Shown one piece after another: positions 59,468 through 62,014 of a stretch of DNA of 64,000 bases (its first letter is position 1; each line of letters begins with the position of its first letter). The stretch covers positions 35,693-99,692 of the forward strand of contig JBBTQL010000004.1 in assembly GCA_038065715.1 (NCBI GenBank), written 5' to 3'. Below the pieces are notes generated by a model that was not told the origin of the DNA, made no database searches, and saw only the letters and a list, made by a program, of their open reading frames with translations. A program made the translations under genes and the position numbers. The stretch is from Patescibacteria group bacterium (lineage in GTDB: Bacteria > Patescibacteriota > Minisyncoccia > Minisyncoccales > Staskawiczbacteraceae).

Positions 59468-62014
59468 ATGAATATGGCAAAATATAATCCTCAAAAAATT
59501 GAGAAGAAATGGCAAGAGGCTTGGTATAAATCAAGCATTTTTAAAGCTAAAAACGGGTCTAAAAATAAGAAATTTTACCTTTTAGTGGAGTTTCCTTATC
59601 CTTCGGGAGACGGGCTTCATGTCGGCCATTGCCGAAGCTATACTGCCTTAGATATTATTGCCAGAAAAAAAAGAATGCAGGGATTTAATGTTTTATTCCC
59701 AATGGGCTGGGACGCTTTTGGATTGCCAACTGAAAATTATGCCATAAAAAAGGGAGTACACCCGTCTGTTGTGACAAAAAAGAATACAGATAACTTTAGG
59801 CGGCAGATGAAAAGTTTGGGGCTTTCTTTTGACTGGAGCCGAGAAATAAATACCACAGACCCAAAATATTATAAATGGACGCAGTGGATTTTTTTGCAGT
59901 TATTTAAAAATAACTTGGCTTATAAAGATAAAATTGCAATCAACTGGTGCCCTAAAGATAAAATTGGATTGGCAAATGAAGAAGTGATAAATGGCAAATG
60001 CGAAAGATGCGGCGCAAAAGTTGAAAAAAGAGATAAAGAGCAATGGATGATAAAAATTACAAAATATGCCGACAGATTAATTGAAGATTTAAATTTAGTT
60101 GATTATTTAGAAAAAATAAAAATACAGCAGAAAGATTGGATAGGCGAGTCACATGGAGCGTTGATAAAATTTTCGTTAGAAGGAAGCGAAGAATTCATAG
60201 AAGTTTTTACAACCAGAATAGACACAATATTTTCTGGCACGTTTTTAATTTTATCTCCAGGACACAATTTTATAGATAAATATAAAAATAAAATTGAAAA
60301 CATTGATGAAGTTTTAAAATATAGAGAAACCGCAAAAAATACTTCTGATATAGATAGAACTAATCAAGATAAAGATATTACAGGAGTGGAATTAAAAGGA
60401 ATTACAGTAAAAAATCCTGCCACAAATGAAGAAATGCCAGTTTGGACAGCTGATTTTGTTTTAGAGCAATACGGAACAGGAGTCGTTTTTGCTGATGCCC
60501 ATGATAAAAGAGATTTTAAAATGGCAAAAAAATATGGGATACCTTTGCGAACTTCAATAAAACCAGAAAATGAACTATCGGCGCAAAAAGCAAAAAATTT
60601 GGAAGAATGTTTTGAGGGCGAAGGCGCTCTTTATAATTCTATGCATTTTGACGGCTTAACTTCTTCTGAAGCCCGACCTAAAATAATTTCTTGGTTAAGG
60701 GAAAAAGGATATGCGGAAAACAAAATAAGCTATAAGCTTCGAGATTGGGTTTTTTCGCGCCAGCATTATTGGGGCGAGCCAATACCAATGATTTTTTGCG
60801 TAAAATGCGGTTGGCAGGCTGTTTTAGAAAAAAATCTGCCCGTTGAATTGCCTAAGGTAAAAAAATATCAGCCAACAGATACAGGCGAATCTCCTCTTTC
60901 TGCTATTGAAAAATGGGTAAATGTAAAATGTCCAAAATGCAAAGGACCGGCAAAAAGAGAAACAGACACAATGCCTAATTGGGCAGGTTCAAACTGGTAT
61001 TACTTGGCATATACTATGCCAAAAATTTCAAATTTCAAATTTCAAATTTCAAATTCTGCGAAAGAATTTTCGCAGTGGATGCCAGTTGACTGGTATAATG
61101 GCGGAATGGAGCACACAACTTTGCATTTATTGTATTCAAGATTTATTTTTAAATTTTTATGGGATATTGGAGCTGTTCCAAAAATAATTGGGGCAGAACC
61201 ATATAAAAAAAGAACTTCGCATGGAATGATTTTAGGCGAAGGGGGAATTAAAATGTCAAAGTCAAAGGGAAATGTAATAAATCCAGATTCAGTTGTGAAA
61301 CAATATGGAGCCGACACCTTAAGAGTTTACGAAATGTTTATCGGGCCTTTTGAGCAAATGATTCCTTGGGATATAAAGGGGGTTGTTGGTTCGCGCAGGT
61401 TTTTAGAAAAAATTTACAACTTAGTTTTGAAGAAGGCAATTCCGGCAAAAATCCCGACGGTCTCGCCGTCGAGGACCCGCGACGAAGTCGGGGCAGAAGA
61501 AAATTTTAAAAAACTTTTGCATAAAACAATAAAAAAGGTTGGTGACGATATTGAGGCAATGAAATTTAACACAGCAGTGAGCTCTTTAATGGAATTTGTA
61601 AATGCATGGAGCATTGCTGAAAATAGTTTAGATAAACCAGCCTCCGATAAAGGCTACGGCTTGGCGAAGAAAGATTTGCAAGAATTTTTAAAGATTTTGT
61701 CGCCTTTTGCCCCGCATTTGTCAGAAGAGCTTTGGCAAAGAGCTGGATTTAAAGGTTTGTGCTGCGCTCAAAAATGGCCTAAGTATGACGAAAAATTAAT
61801 TGAAGAAAAAAACATATTGCTTATTGTGCAAATTAACGGTAAAGTTAGAGATAAAATAGAAGTTAACGCAGGCATTACTCAAAAACAAGCTGAAGAAATA
61901 GTTTTAAAATTAGAAAAAATTAAAAACCGTATAACTAATATTAAAGAAGTGGAAAAAGTTGTTTTTGTGCCAGGTAAGTTAATAAATTTTGTGACTATTG
62001 ACAAGGATAAGTAA
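59468..62014 (+). CDS. leuS: Leucine--tRNA ligase
   Basis: 848 aa with FPYPSGDGLHVGH and KMSKSKGN. Inserts at 61023-61056 and 61452-61493. Confidence 0.95.
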   Translation: MNMAKYNPQKIEKKWQEAWYKSSIFKAKNGSKNKKFYLLVEFPYPSGDGLHVGHCRSYTALDIIARKKRMQGFNVLFPMGWDAFGLPTENYAIKKGVHPSVVTKKNTDNFRRQMKSLGLSFDWSREINTTDPKYYKWTQWIFLQLFKNNLAYKDKIAINWCPKDKIGLANEEVINGKCERCGAKVEKRDKEQWMIKITKYADRLIEDLNLVDYLEKIKIQQKDWIGESHGALIKFSLEGSEEFIEVFTTRIDTIFSGTFLILSPGHNFIDKYKNKIENIDEVLKYRETAKNTSDIDRTNQDKDITGVELKGITVKNPATNEEMPVWTADFVLEQYGTGVVFADAHDKRDFKMAKKYGIPLRTSIKPENELSAQKAKNLEECFEGEGALYNSMHFDGLTSSEARPKIISWLREKGYAENKISYKLRDWVFSRQHYWGEPIPMIFCVKCGWQAVLEKNLPVELPKVKKYQPTDTGESPLSAIEKWVNVKCPKCKGPAKRETDTMPNWAGSNWYYLAYTMPKISNFKFQISNSAKEFSQWMPVDWYNGGMEHTTLHLLYSRFIFKFLWDIGAVPKIIGAEPYKKRTSHGMILGEGGIKMSKSKGNVINPDSVVKQYGADTLRVYEMFIGPFEQMIPWDIKGVVGSRRFLEKIYNLVLKKAIPAKIPTVSPSRTRDEVGAEENFKKLLHKTIKKVGDDIEAMKFNTAVSSLMEFVNAWSIAENSLDKPASDKGYGLAKKDLQEFLKILSPFAPHLSEELWQRAGFKGLCCAQKWPKYDEKLIEEKNILLIVQINGKVRDKIEVNAGITQKQAEEIVLKLEKIKNRITNIKEVEKVVFVPGKLINFVTIDKDK
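61023..61056 (+). repeat. AAATTTC heptamer tandem repeat inserted in frame in leuS
   Basis: (AAATTTC)x4 plus a partial unit. Encodes KISNFKFQISNS. Confidence 0.85.
61452..61493. repeat. GC-rich palindromic insert family A, copy A4 (in frame in leuS)
   Basis: TCCCGACGGTCTCGCCGTCGAGGACCCGCGACGAAGTCGGGG is about 80% identical by eye to the reverse complement of A1. Encodes PTVSPSRTRDEVGAE. Confidence 0.75.

What the first reader, a model, noticed from the sequence alone, without database searches (positions are those of the whole stretch)
61023..61056. AAATTTC heptamer repeat encodes the same peptide (NFKFQIS) in uvrB, leuS and argS
Seen in sequence:
- (AAATTTC)n occurs on the coding strand of uvrB (20317-20350, IEISNFKFQISNL), leuS (61023-61056, KISNFKFQISNS) and argS (41137-41149 and 41193-41205, split by element A3).
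- A variant, CAATTTC x3, occurs in murE (23835-23856, NSQFPISNL).
- 7 and 3 are coprime, so three heptamers restore the frame. All three reading frames of AAATTTC repeats give the same cyclic peptide, KFQISNF, with no stop.
- The reverse complement, GAAATTT, creates TGA in one of every three frames.
- All genic copies observed are in the stop-free orientation.
- Similar AT-rich short repeats flank GC hairpins in intergenic DNA (39050-39100).

Inference: this is either a slippage-prone microsatellite-like element or the preferred target or flank of the GC-rich hairpin elements. It is tolerated in essential proteins only in the sense orientation.
Basis: seen in the sequence. Interest (0 to 1): 0.6.

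Follow-up and report, generated by a model that had tools for sequence, protein, structure and literature searches.

The report
Seven-base repeats inside housekeeping genes
Short runs of a seven-base repeat sit in frame inside several housekeeping genes of a tiny groundwater bacterium; they encode small surface loops and survive size changes only in steps of three units, so they are an unusual coding form of an ordinary microsatellite.

Summary
Perfect (AAATTTC)4.7-4.9 arrays lie on the coding strand of leuS and uvrB. A third array in argS is split by a clean 42-nt GC-rich palindromic insert, and murE carries a CAATTTC variant. The genome is a Candidatus Staskawiczbacteria (Patescibacteria) MAG.

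These are heptanucleotide simple-sequence repeats, not a mobile element and not a hairpin target site. Orthologues carry arrays of other heptamers (AATTTCC, CAAAAGT, AAATCAA, GAAATTC) at the same LeuRS, UvrB and ArgRS loops, with the same period and nearly the same length. At the LeuRS site, array-free forms are 72 nt and array forms are 93 nt: an 11-nt seed plus exactly three units (21 nt). This fits an accordion model in which only three-unit changes survive, and it explains the 4.3-5.1-copy mode.

In 403 kb around LeuRS in 80 related contigs, 31 of 38 tandem arrays have period 7, nearly all in sense orientation inside ORFs. (AAATTTC)n also sits in frame in LeuRS, ArgRS, MetRS, ValRS, MurD and other enzymes in many phyla.

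The shared peptide and the sense-only orientation are forced: the reverse strand has TGA in every frame. Why period 7 outnumbers in-frame periods inside genes remains unexplained.

The parts
61023..61055 (+). (AAATTTC)x4.7 perfect heptanucleotide array in leuS, encoding ISNFKFQISN (LeuRS residues 520-530)
   Evidence: The same site in orthologues carries other heptamer arrays.
59468..62014 (+). leuS ORF (848 aa), host of the array
   Evidence: P0001 is 100% identical, named leucine--tRNA ligase; PDB 1h3n, E 6e-219.
20317..20350 (-). (AAATTTC)x4.9 perfect array in uvrB, encoding EISNFKFQISNL (UvrB residues 246-255)
   Evidence: In the AF2 model it lies in a low-confidence loop between strands 230-238 and 256-258. 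Orthologues show 7-aa-periodic peptides at this site.
19035..21083 (-). uvrB ORF (682 aa), host
   Evidence: PDB 2fdc, E 2e-217.
41137..41149 (+). left half of the argS AAATTTC array (GNFKF)
41150..41191 (+). 42-nt GC-rich palindromic insert (TCCCGAT...ATCGGGA) coding SRFHRGSSMAKPSG; a later in-frame insertion into the array and a different kind of element
   Evidence: Removing it restores a 117-nt segment of exactly the length seen in P0274 and P0242, which carry the uninterrupted array.
41192..41211 (+). right half of the argS array (QISNLKL)
39827..41482 (+). argS ORF (551 aa), host
   Evidence: (P0241 is 100% identical).
23836..23855 (+). (CAATTTC)x2.9 array in murE, encoding SQFPISN
   Evidence: It is absent from the closest relative's MurE, which is 6 aa shorter there.
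23634..23665 (+). (AAACCCC)x4.6 imperfect heptamer array in murE, encoding QNPKPQTPNPK
11869..11902 (+). (CATGGAA)x4.9 imperfect heptamer array inside the fpg/mutM-like ORF 11620-12513
   Evidence: Pfam Fapy_DNA_glyco.
45903..45928 (+). decayed A-rich heptamer array in ileS (LIKIKNKKLKI); the orthologue L125 has (TTAAAAA)x5 at the same place
28580..28611 (.). (AATTTTT)x4.6 array; I did not check whether it is intergenic or coding
34589..34616 (.). (AATTTTT)x4 imperfect intergenic array, lying between ORFs 32698-34527 and 34665-36359

Best explanation
The AAATTTC runs are heptanucleotide simple-sequence repeats (microsatellites) living inside protein-coding genes of a Candidatus Staskawiczbacteria genome.

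**How they arise (inferred).** A short native seed of about 1.6-1.9 units is extended by misaligned (slipped-strand) DNA synthesis. Such a seed is, for example, AAT TTC AAA TT, which encodes N-F-K-F/L.

**Why the size is what it is (partly shown).** The unit is 7 nt, so only net changes of three units (21 nt = 7 codons) keep the downstream frame. In these housekeeping genes the surviving states are therefore about 1.7, 4.7 and rarely 7.7 units. Repeated contraction to the seed and re-expansion would keep the units identical. It would also let the unit sequence drift between lineages while the total length stays fixed.

**Why they are where they are (partly shown).** Arrays persist only where seven to eleven extra or replaced residues are harmless: variable loops of LeuRS, UvrB domain 2, ArgRS, MurE, MetRS and IleRS.

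**Why the orientation is fixed (shown).** They survive only in the orientation without stops, because GAAATTT repeats contain TGA in every frame. The common peptide (KFQISNF)n is a by-product of the DNA repeat, not a selected motif.

**What is shown and what is inferred.**
- Shown: the arrays themselves, their positions in variable loops, the three-unit length classes, unit turnover at constant length, and the dominance of period 7.
- Inferred: slippage as the molecular cause, and the contraction and re-expansion cycle.
For: 1. **Different units at the same site.** Orthologous LeuRS genes carry different heptamer arrays of the same period and similar length at this site: AAATTTC x4.7 here, AATTTCC x4.3, CAAAAGT x5, AAATCAA x4.6, GAAATTC x4.9.
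2. **Three-unit length classes.** The LeuRS segment is 72 nt in 61 of 80 loci, which include three array-free members of the array-bearing (LAY) subgroup, and 93 nt in 7. L521 has the 11-nt seed AAATCAAAAAT where L535 has 32 nt of the same repeat, a difference of +21 nt with collinear flanks.
3. **Concerted change.** The window and L463/L539 arrays are in the same register and the same 84-nt segment. They differ by the same A-to-C change in every unit, which independent point mutations cannot produce.
4. **Old arrays at the UvrB and ArgRS loops.** 7-residue-periodic peptides occur there in 10 and 9 of 120 orthologues, against 0-2 for periods 4-6 and 8-10. DNA of P0121 shows (TTACAAG)n at the UvrB site.
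5. **The argS array predates its hairpin.** Orthologues at 67-81% identity carry it uninterrupted at identical length.
6. **Period 7 dominates.** 31 of 38 arrays in 403 kb around LeuRS have period 7, and 27 of those 31 have 4.1-5.3 copies, nearly all sense-oriented inside long ORFs. In 205 kb of other Staskawiczbacteria loci, 19 arrays have period 7 against 7 of other periods, while shuffles give about 1 per period.
7. **The 31-35-nt mode is stronger in genes.** It holds 53% of arrays inside ORFs and 27% outside. The few longer in-ORF arrays include 54 nt, which is 7.7 units.
8. **AAATTTC is not a special unit.** In viral contigs it is about as frequent as AATATTC and rarer than AAAATTC and ATAATTC.
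9. **The sites are variable loops.** The arrays align to variable segments of solved LeuRS, UvrB and ArgRS structures and to a low-confidence loop in the UvrB model.
10. **Literature.** Heptanucleotide repeats are reported as the most abundant long SSR class in most prokaryotic genomes (Mrazek 2007, as summarised in PMC4679880). Four- and five-unit heptamer families occur within and between genes in Geobacter metallireducens (PMC2700814).
Against: - **Seed expansion is hard to explain.** A 1.6-unit seed cannot gain three units in one simple slip. Single-unit intermediates would frameshift LeuRS or ArgRS, so reiterative synthesis, or some tolerance of intermediates, has to be assumed.
- **One case is not an indel.** The MetRS array in L058 replaces about 21 nt of native sequence at exactly the same length as in L121. 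That looks like overwriting rather than insertion.
- **Period 7 should be disfavoured in genes.** Inside ORFs, periods of 6, 9 or 12 should be far better tolerated, yet period 7 outnumbers them 31 to 5. Slippage alone does not explain that.
- **AT-only arrays in GC-rich genes.** Such arrays sit in genes of 58-62% GC in other phyla, where a local seed is unlikely.
- **Unit sharing within a genome.** Three arrays in this 64-kb window share one unit, which makes up only about 6% of units in the census.
- **No polymorphism seen.** Two other assemblies of the same population show no length variation at the argS array.
Confidence: 0.72

Rival explanations
1. Copy-and-paste cassette. Arrays of about 26-35 nt are written into genes from elsewhere rather than grown in place. 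Possible routes are ectopic gene conversion between dispersed arrays, short-patch illegitimate recombination after DNA uptake, or a dedicated polymerase or reverse-transcriptase activity.
For: - The same unit occurs in three genes of this window, and AATTTCC occurs in two genes of L121.
- The L058 MetRS array overwrites native sequence without changing its length.
- Pure-AT arrays sit in GC-rich genes of Akkermansiaceae, Chthoniobacter, Anaerolineae and Terriglobales.
- The same LeuRS, ArgRS and MurD sites are hit in distant phyla.
- Length drops sharply above 35 nt for every heptamer unit tested, outside ORFs as well.
Against: - No target-site duplication, terminal repeats or conserved flanks were noticed on inspecting the array flanks; this was not tested formally.
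- Most genomes with several arrays use different units at different sites of the same gene, as in L522, L512, L511 and L524. This argues against a single template per genome.
- Seeds of the same unit are present in array-free orthologues.
- Length classes differ by whole units.
- The reverse transcriptase in the window belongs to a diversity-generating retroelement with its own template and variable repeat.
Confidence: 0.13
2. Target or flank of the GC-rich hairpin elements. The AT-rich heptamer array would be the preferred integration site, or part of the structure, of the palindromic elements that pepper this genome.
For: - The argS array is split exactly by a 42-nt palindromic insert.
- UvrB P0218 and ArgRS P0281 also carry hairpin-type inserts inside array-coded loops.
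- Several Patescibacteria arrays abut short GC hairpins, for example L038, L058, L094 and L109.
- The leuS array is followed by CTGCGAAAgaatTTTCGCAG at 61056-61075.
Against: - Across 119 arrays, flanking hairpins are no more frequent than at random positions.
- The other three copies of the argS hairpin family in the window are not next to heptamer repeats.
- Hairpin inserts also occur in the same loops where no array is present, as in L511, L520, L533, P0158 and P0173.
- The leuS hairpin is not conserved in L489.
- Shared permissive loops explain the co-occurrence.
Confidence: 0.05
3. Selected function. Either the repeat peptide is useful (for example an amphipathic strand-turn unit), or the nucleic acid is a signal. 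The signal could be a protein-binding array like those proposed for TAACTGA repeats, a phase-variation switch like neuO, or a -1 frameshift site, since A AAT TTC fits the X XXY YYZ pattern.
For: - The peptide recurs at identical sites in orthologues and in other phyla.
- Four to five heptamers is also the size of the proposed regulatory heptamer families in Geobacter metallireducens (PMC2700814).
- One AAATTTC unit in leuS (61030-61036) is in the phase of a slippery site.
Against: - Orthologous sites carry arrays with quite different units and peptides: KSQKSKV, NQKSKIK, SKFEIRN, NYKLLTT.
- Arrays are perfect at the DNA level, with no synonymous variation.
- Many orthologues lack them altogether.
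- The hosts are housekeeping enzymes, where an off state would be harmful.
- The nearest hairpin lies 19 nt after the slippery heptamer, outside the usual 5-9 nt.
- The UvrB array region is predicted with low confidence.
Confidence: 0.05

Closest known systems
Long simple-sequence repeats of heptanucleotide units in prokaryotes (Mrazek, Guo and Shah 2007, as summarised in PMC4679880)
   Same: Both are head-to-tail repeats of a 7-nt unit, far longer than chance allows. Period 7 is the dominant class, and slippage is the proposed cause, with 7 nt perhaps reflecting the stretch held by the polymerase.
   Different: That survey noted that units in multiples of three are the ones most likely to lie in coding regions. 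Here heptamers dominate inside housekeeping genes, have a tight 4.3-5.1-copy mode, and change in three-unit steps.
neuO heptanucleotide VNTR (AAGACTC) of E. coli K1 prophage CUS-3 (PMC13001214)
   Same: Both are heptanucleotide repeats inside a coding sequence. Full-length translation needs a repeat number compatible with the frame (divisible by 3 in neuO), and the repeat encodes a 7-residue peptide repeat.
   Different: neuO is a non-essential, phase-variable surface-modification gene with 3-53 repeats, and 65.6% of genomes are out of frame. The arrays here have under 5 units, sit in housekeeping enzymes, are in frame, and were identical in the assemblies available.
Four- and five-unit heptanucleotide families in Geobacter metallireducens: GGACCGG x4 (49 copies within and between genes) and MTYCTGA x5 (PMC2700814)
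   Same: These are dispersed arrays of four to five heptamers, some inside genes, with one unit shared by many loci of a genome.
   Different: The Geobacter units are GC-rich and were proposed as regulatory RNA or binding sites. Orthologue comparison, unit turnover and frame behaviour were not described.
TAACTGA direct repeats of marine Beggiatoaceae, Cyanobacteria and Bacteroidetes (PMC4679880)
   Same: These are heptamer direct repeats of 2-6 copies with a scattered distribution across phyla. One orientation has stops in all frames, so genic copies are limited to the other orientation or to ORF ends.
   Different: They are mostly intergenic and lie just upstream of start codons, which suggested translational control. 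Genic copies sit at protein termini rather than in internal loops of conserved enzymes.
Short tandemly repeated repetitive (STRR) heptanucleotide sequences of heterocystous cyanobacteria (from my own knowledge, not checked here)
   Same: Tandem heptanucleotide arrays dispersed in a genome, with function unknown.
   Different: They have different units and taxa, and are mainly described as non-coding.
Rickettsia palindromic elements inserted in frame in protein genes (from my own knowledge, not checked here)
   Same: They are the closest analogue for the 42-nt GC-rich palindrome that interrupts the argS array: a short palindromic element tolerated in frame in housekeeping proteins.
   Different: The heptamer arrays themselves have no palindromic ends and behave as unit-step repeats, not as discrete insertions.

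Membership tests
Simple-sequence repeat (microsatellite), heptanucleotide class | Head-to-tail repeats of a unit of 1-11 nt, longer than expected by chance | tested here: met
   Perfect 33- and 34-nt arrays. There are 11 near-matches against 1.2 expected, and 0 of 100 shuffles reach 11.
Simple-sequence repeat (microsatellite), heptanucleotide class | Copy number differs between related genomes by whole units | tested here: met
   LeuRS segments are 72 or 93 nt. L521 has an 11-nt seed where L535 has a 32-nt array, a difference of 21 nt or 3 units.
Simple-sequence repeat (microsatellite), heptanucleotide class | Length polymorphism within a population | tested here: inconclusive
   Only two other assemblies could be compared, and only at the argS array. 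One is 100% identical and the other has 5 mismatches and no gaps. No reads were available.
Simple-sequence repeat (microsatellite), heptanucleotide class | No dependence on terminal repeats, target duplications or specific flanks | tested here: met
   On inspection, flanks of 122 arrays are unrelated and show no duplications. There is no hairpin excess.
Phase-variable contingency locus (neuO type) | Frequent on/off switching through out-of-frame repeat numbers in a dispensable, usually surface-related gene | tested here: not met
   The hosts are LeuRS, ArgRS, MurE and UvrB. The arrays have under 5 units, are in frame here, and are in frame in every orthologue examined.
Miniature mobile element (MITE, REP or RPE type) | Discrete element with inverted-repeat ends or a palindrome, present or absent as a clean indel of fixed length | tested here: not met
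   The arrays have no inverted ends. Their differences are whole units or length-neutral changes. The feature is met only by the separate 42-nt insert at 41150-41191.
Programmed -1 ribosomal frameshift site | X XXY YYZ heptamer in phase, followed after 5-9 nt by a stable structure | tested here: not met
   A AAT TTC is in phase once (61030-61036), but the only nearby hairpin starts 19 nt later at 61056. Orthologous arrays use non-slippery units.
Regulatory heptamer arrays (TAACTGA or Geobacter type) | Preferential position in intergenic or 5' untranslated regions next to start codons | tested here: not met
   In the Staskawiczbacteria census nearly all period-7 arrays lie inside long ORFs. The three arrays of the finding are internal to genes.

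The most novel reading that the evidence does not exclude
Heptamer arrays may not be passive slippage products. They could instead be the footprint of a widespread, uncharacterised DNA-synthesis or repair process with a 7-nt step. The process would reiteratively copy a short seed and write or overwrite about 21 nt at a time. That would make it a general source of new surface loops in essential enzymes, especially class I aminoacyl-tRNA synthetases and Mur ligases, across bacterial phyla.

If so, it would also explain why period 7 beats in-frame periods inside genes, and why arrays stop at about five units.
Probability: 0.12. Interest if true: 0.75.

Novelty: new variant of a known kind. Interest (0 to 1): 0.45.

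Why it matters
- **New loops in conserved proteins.** Repeats whose unit is not a multiple of three can colonise and persist in conserved housekeeping genes, where they supply raw material for lineage-specific loops. This matters for how proteins of reduced-genome bacteria acquire insertions, and for reading alignments of marker genes such as LeuRS, ArgRS and UvrB.
- **A natural test of an old question.** Why heptanucleotides dominate long simple repeats in prokaryotes has been open since 2007. The three-unit rule, the seed-plus-three-units size and the unit turnover give quantitative predictions that can be checked in reads and in reporter assays.
- **Annotation.** These arrays are frameshift hazards for assemblies and gene callers.

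Tried and rejected
1. **Hairpin association.** I folded 30 nt on each side of 119 arrays and compared them with random 30-mers. There was no enrichment.
2. **Is AAATTTC a special unit?** Exact 21-mer scans of viral contigs gave 30 loci for AAATTTC, 29 for AATATTC, 64 for AAAATTC and 81 for ATAATTC. AAATTTC is not special there, and that collection, which includes giant viruses, shows no period-7 excess.
3. **Population polymorphism.** Other assemblies of the same Hainich groundwater population are identical around argS. Contigs found by exact protein identity cannot reveal variants of leuS or uvrB, and no reads were available.
4. **Mobile-element reading.** I saw no duplications or inverted ends on inspecting the flanks.
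5. **Genome-wide common template.** Most genomes use different units at different sites of one gene.
6. **Link to the window's reverse transcriptase.** It belongs to a diversity-generating retroelement with its own template and variable repeat.
7. **Frameshift-site reading.** The spacing is wrong, and other units are not slippery.
8. **Literature.** There were no hits for the peptide. The only hits for the DNA repeat were unrelated to bacterial genomes: a study of an A/T-rich DNA-binding compound and two rapeseed marker papers. Nothing was found on heptamer arrays in Candidate Phyla Radiation genes. The Mrazek 2007 paper is not held, so it is cited through PMC4679880.
9. **Relatedness of L521 and L524.** Ungapped flank identities were unusable because other indels shift the alignment. 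I claim only that the immediate flanks are collinear.
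Full report
**What is there**

The window is about 34% G+C. Its LeuRS and ArgRS match proteins of a Patescibacteria MAG at 100% identity, and the nearest named relatives are Candidatus Staskawiczbacteria. 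Another assembly of the same population comes from Hainich groundwater.

The reported arrays are all present:
- **leuS:** perfect AAATTTC x4.7 at 61023-61055, inside ORF 59468-62014, peptide KISNFKFQISNS.
- **uvrB:** perfect x4.9 at 20317-20350, on the coding (minus) strand of ORF 19035-21083, peptide IEISNFKFQISNL.
- **argS:** 41137-41149 plus 41192-41211, separated by 42 nt.
- **murE:** CAATTTC x2.9 at 23836-23855.

Two-unit matches with at most one mismatch occur 11 times against 1.2 expected, and 0 of 100 shuffles reach 11.

- Any repeat whose unit is not a multiple of three gives the same peptide in all frames.
- The reverse strand (GAAATTT)n contains TGA in every frame once per 21 nt. 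An intact ORF can therefore hold the array only in the sense orientation, so the observed orientation carries no information.

**The arrays are one case of a general heptamer habit of these genomes**

- The window also holds CATGGAA x4.9 in fpg, AAACCCC x4.6 in murE, a decayed A-rich array in ileS and two AATTTTT arrays.
- In 205 kb of Staskawiczbacteria loci, 19 arrays have period 7 against 3, 2 and 2 for periods 6, 8 and 9. Markov shuffles give about one per period.
- In a sample chosen only by LeuRS homology (80 metagenomic contigs, 403 kb), 31 of 38 arrays have period 7. Of those 31, 27 have 4.1-5.3 copies.
- Their units are diverse: AAATCAA, AAATTCA, AAATCCA, AAATCCC, AAATTAC, AATTTTC, AAGTCAA, GAAATTC, AATTTCC and AAATTTC.
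- Nearly all lie in sense orientation inside long ORFs. Some LeuRS genes carry three arrays at different sites.

**Orthologue comparison shows what the arrays are**

*LeuRS.*
- Most of 120 orthologues read LRY-DPKNNKKLADEKLLKYWMP at this site.
- A subgroup that reads LAY instead of LRY here (the LAY subgroup) carries heptamer-coded peptides at the same place.
- The DNA there is AAATTTC x4.7 here, AATTTCC x4.3, CAAAAGT x5, AAATCAA x4.6 and GAAATTC x4.9.
- The segment between NWAGSNWY and VDWYNGG is 72 nt in 61 loci, 93 nt in 7 and 84 nt in 7. The 72-nt class includes three array-free members of the LAY subgroup, and the 84-nt class includes the window's type.
- L521 has the 11-nt seed AAATCAAAAAT where L535 has 32 nt of the same repeat. 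That is exactly +21 nt between collinear flanks.
- The window and L463/L539 arrays share register and segment length. They differ by the same A-to-C change in every unit. That requires homogenisation, not independent substitutions.

*UvrB and ArgRS.*
- 7-residue-periodic peptides of many kinds fill the corresponding loops: 10 and 9 runs among 120 orthologues, against 0-2 for periods 4-6 and 8-10.
- DNA of the closest UvrB relative shows (TTACAAG)n.

*ArgRS.*
- Orthologues at 67-81% identity carry the uninterrupted array GNFKFQISNFKLL or decayed forms of it.
- Their 117-nt segment has exactly the length of the window's segment minus the 42-nt insert. The GC-rich palindrome TCCCGAT...ATCGGGA therefore entered an older array.

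**Mechanism**

The data fit an accordion model.
- A native seed of about 1.6-1.9 units is extended, and later contracted, by misaligned synthesis.
- In housekeeping genes only net changes of three units survive. This gives states near 1.7, 4.7 and rarely 7.7 units.
- Regrowth from the seed makes the units identical and lets the unit drift while the length stays fixed.
- This explains the 4.3-5.1-copy mode. It also explains why the 31-35-nt mode holds 53% of arrays inside ORFs but only 27% outside, and the rare 54-nt in-ORF array.

The host sites are variable segments:
- The arrays align to T. thermophilus LeuRS about residues 514-527.
- They align to domain 2 of B. caldotenax UvrB, about residues 226-240.
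- They align to the start of the DALR domain of C. jejuni ArgRS.
- In an AlphaFold model of the window's UvrB (mean pLDDT 72.6), the array residues 246-255 lie in a low-confidence loop between two strands.

Slippage itself, and the contraction and re-expansion cycle, are inferred rather than shown.

**What the model does not explain**

- A 1.6-unit seed cannot gain three units in a single simple slip, and single-unit intermediates would frameshift LeuRS.
- In MetRS, the L058 array replaces about 21 nt of native sequence at exactly the length seen in L121. It spreads from the conserved NFKF seed, which looks like overwriting rather than insertion.
- Inside genes, periods of 6, 9 and 12 should be much better tolerated, yet period 7 outnumbers them 31 to 5.
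- Arrays longer than 35 nt are rare for every heptamer tested, outside ORFs as well.
- A scan of species-representative genomes found more than 120 loci with (AAATTTC)3 in many phyla. Of these arrays, 35 lie well inside stop-free frames of at least 250 aa.
- For 19 of those frames Pfam identified the host protein. The hosts are four LeuRS (two at the window's site), ArgRS at the window's site, two MurD at one shared site, and MetRS, ValRS, GuaA, Fmt, TatD, an amidase (GatA-like), a Mur ligase family protein (FolC-like), a pyridine nucleotide-disulphide oxidoreductase (TrxB-like), RecJ, RlmN, TamB and a radical SAM protein.
- Some of these arrays are pure-AT islands in contigs of 58-62% G+C.

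These points keep alive a minority reading: that a copying or repair process with a 7-nt step writes the arrays.

**Rivals tested**

- **Hairpin target or flank:** no excess of hairpins next to arrays. Only one of four copies of the argS hairpin family lies in an array. Hairpin inserts also occur in the same loops without arrays.
- **Mobile cassette or common template:** no duplications or inverted ends were seen. Most genomes use different units at different sites of one gene.
- **AAATTTC as a special unit:** its frequency in viral contigs is ordinary compared with other heptamers.
- **Selected peptide, binding site, phase switch or frameshift site:** orthologous sites carry quite different units, the arrays show no synonymous variation, and the hosts are housekeeping genes. 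The only nearby hairpin lies 19 nt from the one in-phase slippery heptamer.
- **Polymorphism:** none in the two other assemblies available, and only at argS. No reads could be examined.

**Comparison with what is known**

- The arrays belong to the heptanucleotide long simple-sequence repeats, reported as the most abundant long-repeat class in most prokaryotic genomes. A polymerase-footprint idea has been offered for the 7-nt unit (Mrazek 2007, via PMC4679880).
- They resemble the four- and five-unit heptamer families of Geobacter metallireducens (PMC2700814) and the TAACTGA repeats of Beggiatoaceae (PMC4679880).
- The closest coding example is the neuO AAGACTC repeat, which is translated only when the copy number is divisible by three (PMC13001214). 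That repeat is a phase switch in a dispensable gene, with 3-53 copies.
- Four features appear new in the literature I could search:
  - in-frame residence in internal loops of housekeeping enzymes;
  - the seed-plus-three-units size;
  - unit turnover at constant length;
  - recurrence at the same aaRS and Mur-ligase sites across phyla.

**Verdict**

The feature is real and mostly explained. It is a new variant of a known kind, of moderate interest.

Noticed in passing
window 41150-41191, 8228-8273, 21283-21330, 61441-61502, and about 80 GC-rich islands listed: Short GC-rich palindromic elements sit in frame inside many ORFs of this 34% G+C genome; one example is UvrB residues 185-201 (IPASNASRSNAGWDFKP), predicted at very low confidence. 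They are present or absent between the window and its closest relatives: IleRS has REGGGKDY and PSADSGQVND here, and HAYRQAG and PAQGGSASGREDHN in L125. They resemble Rickettsia palindromic elements and may deserve their own study.
   Followed up: partly
window 24219-26726: This is a diversity-generating retroelement. The reverse transcriptase ORF is 25734-26726 (Pfam RVT_1, E 1e-24). The template repeat is about 25208-25335 and the variable repeat about 24741-24868, at the 3' end of GC-rich ORF 24219-24878. Almost all mismatches fall at template adenines.
   Followed up: partly
window 62142-62822 and 57767-57951: These are strongly GC-rich coding stretches in an AT-rich genome. ORF 62142-62822 has no Pfam match. 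The stretch 57767-57951 reads like a CsrA-type protein by eye, and relative L123 has a CsrA gene at the same place. They may be foreign DNA.
   Followed up: no
L522 1995-2026, 2104-2137, 3256-3285; also L512, L511, L524, L535, L541: LeuRS genes of related metagenomic contigs carry two or three heptamer arrays at different sites, usually with different units. LeuRS seems an unusually frequent host.
   Followed up: partly
L102 6729-6753, L109 5513-5538, L090 2959-2991, L049 6461-6494, L119 (minus strand) 6883-6909: (AAATTTC)n occupies the same LeuRS site in a Nitrospirae MAG and in an unclassified bacterium. It also occupies the same ArgRS site in another Patescibacteria MAG, and one MurD site in two Nitrospirae-type MAGs. 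I did not resolve whether this is independent origin or gene-segment transfer.
   Followed up: partly
L017, L068, L085, L089, L120, L115 (gut Segatella and Acutalibacteraceae bins): Intergenic regions there are built as mosaics of several different heptamer arrays (AGTGAGG, AGATTTC, AAATTTC, AGAAACT, AACCAAAT-like), next to a recurring small hairpin GCGGCAGAGCCGC.
   Followed up: no
window 32698-34527: A family X DNA polymerase with a PHP domain is encoded in the window and is conserved in the relatives L124 and L125. It is a candidate gap-filling enzyme if array synthesis turns out to be repair-linked, but nothing here links the two.
   Followed up: no
window 19035-21083: The exact UvrB protein of the window is not in the large protein collection; the best hit is 84% identical. 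LeuRS and ArgRS are there at 100%. The gene may not have been called, or may have been flagged, in the public annotation.
   Followed up: no
window 61030-61036: A AAT TTC in the leuS reading frame matches the X XXY YYZ slippery pattern of -1 frameshift sites. The nearest hairpin (61056-61075) is 19 nt away, so this is probably coincidence.
   Followed up: partly
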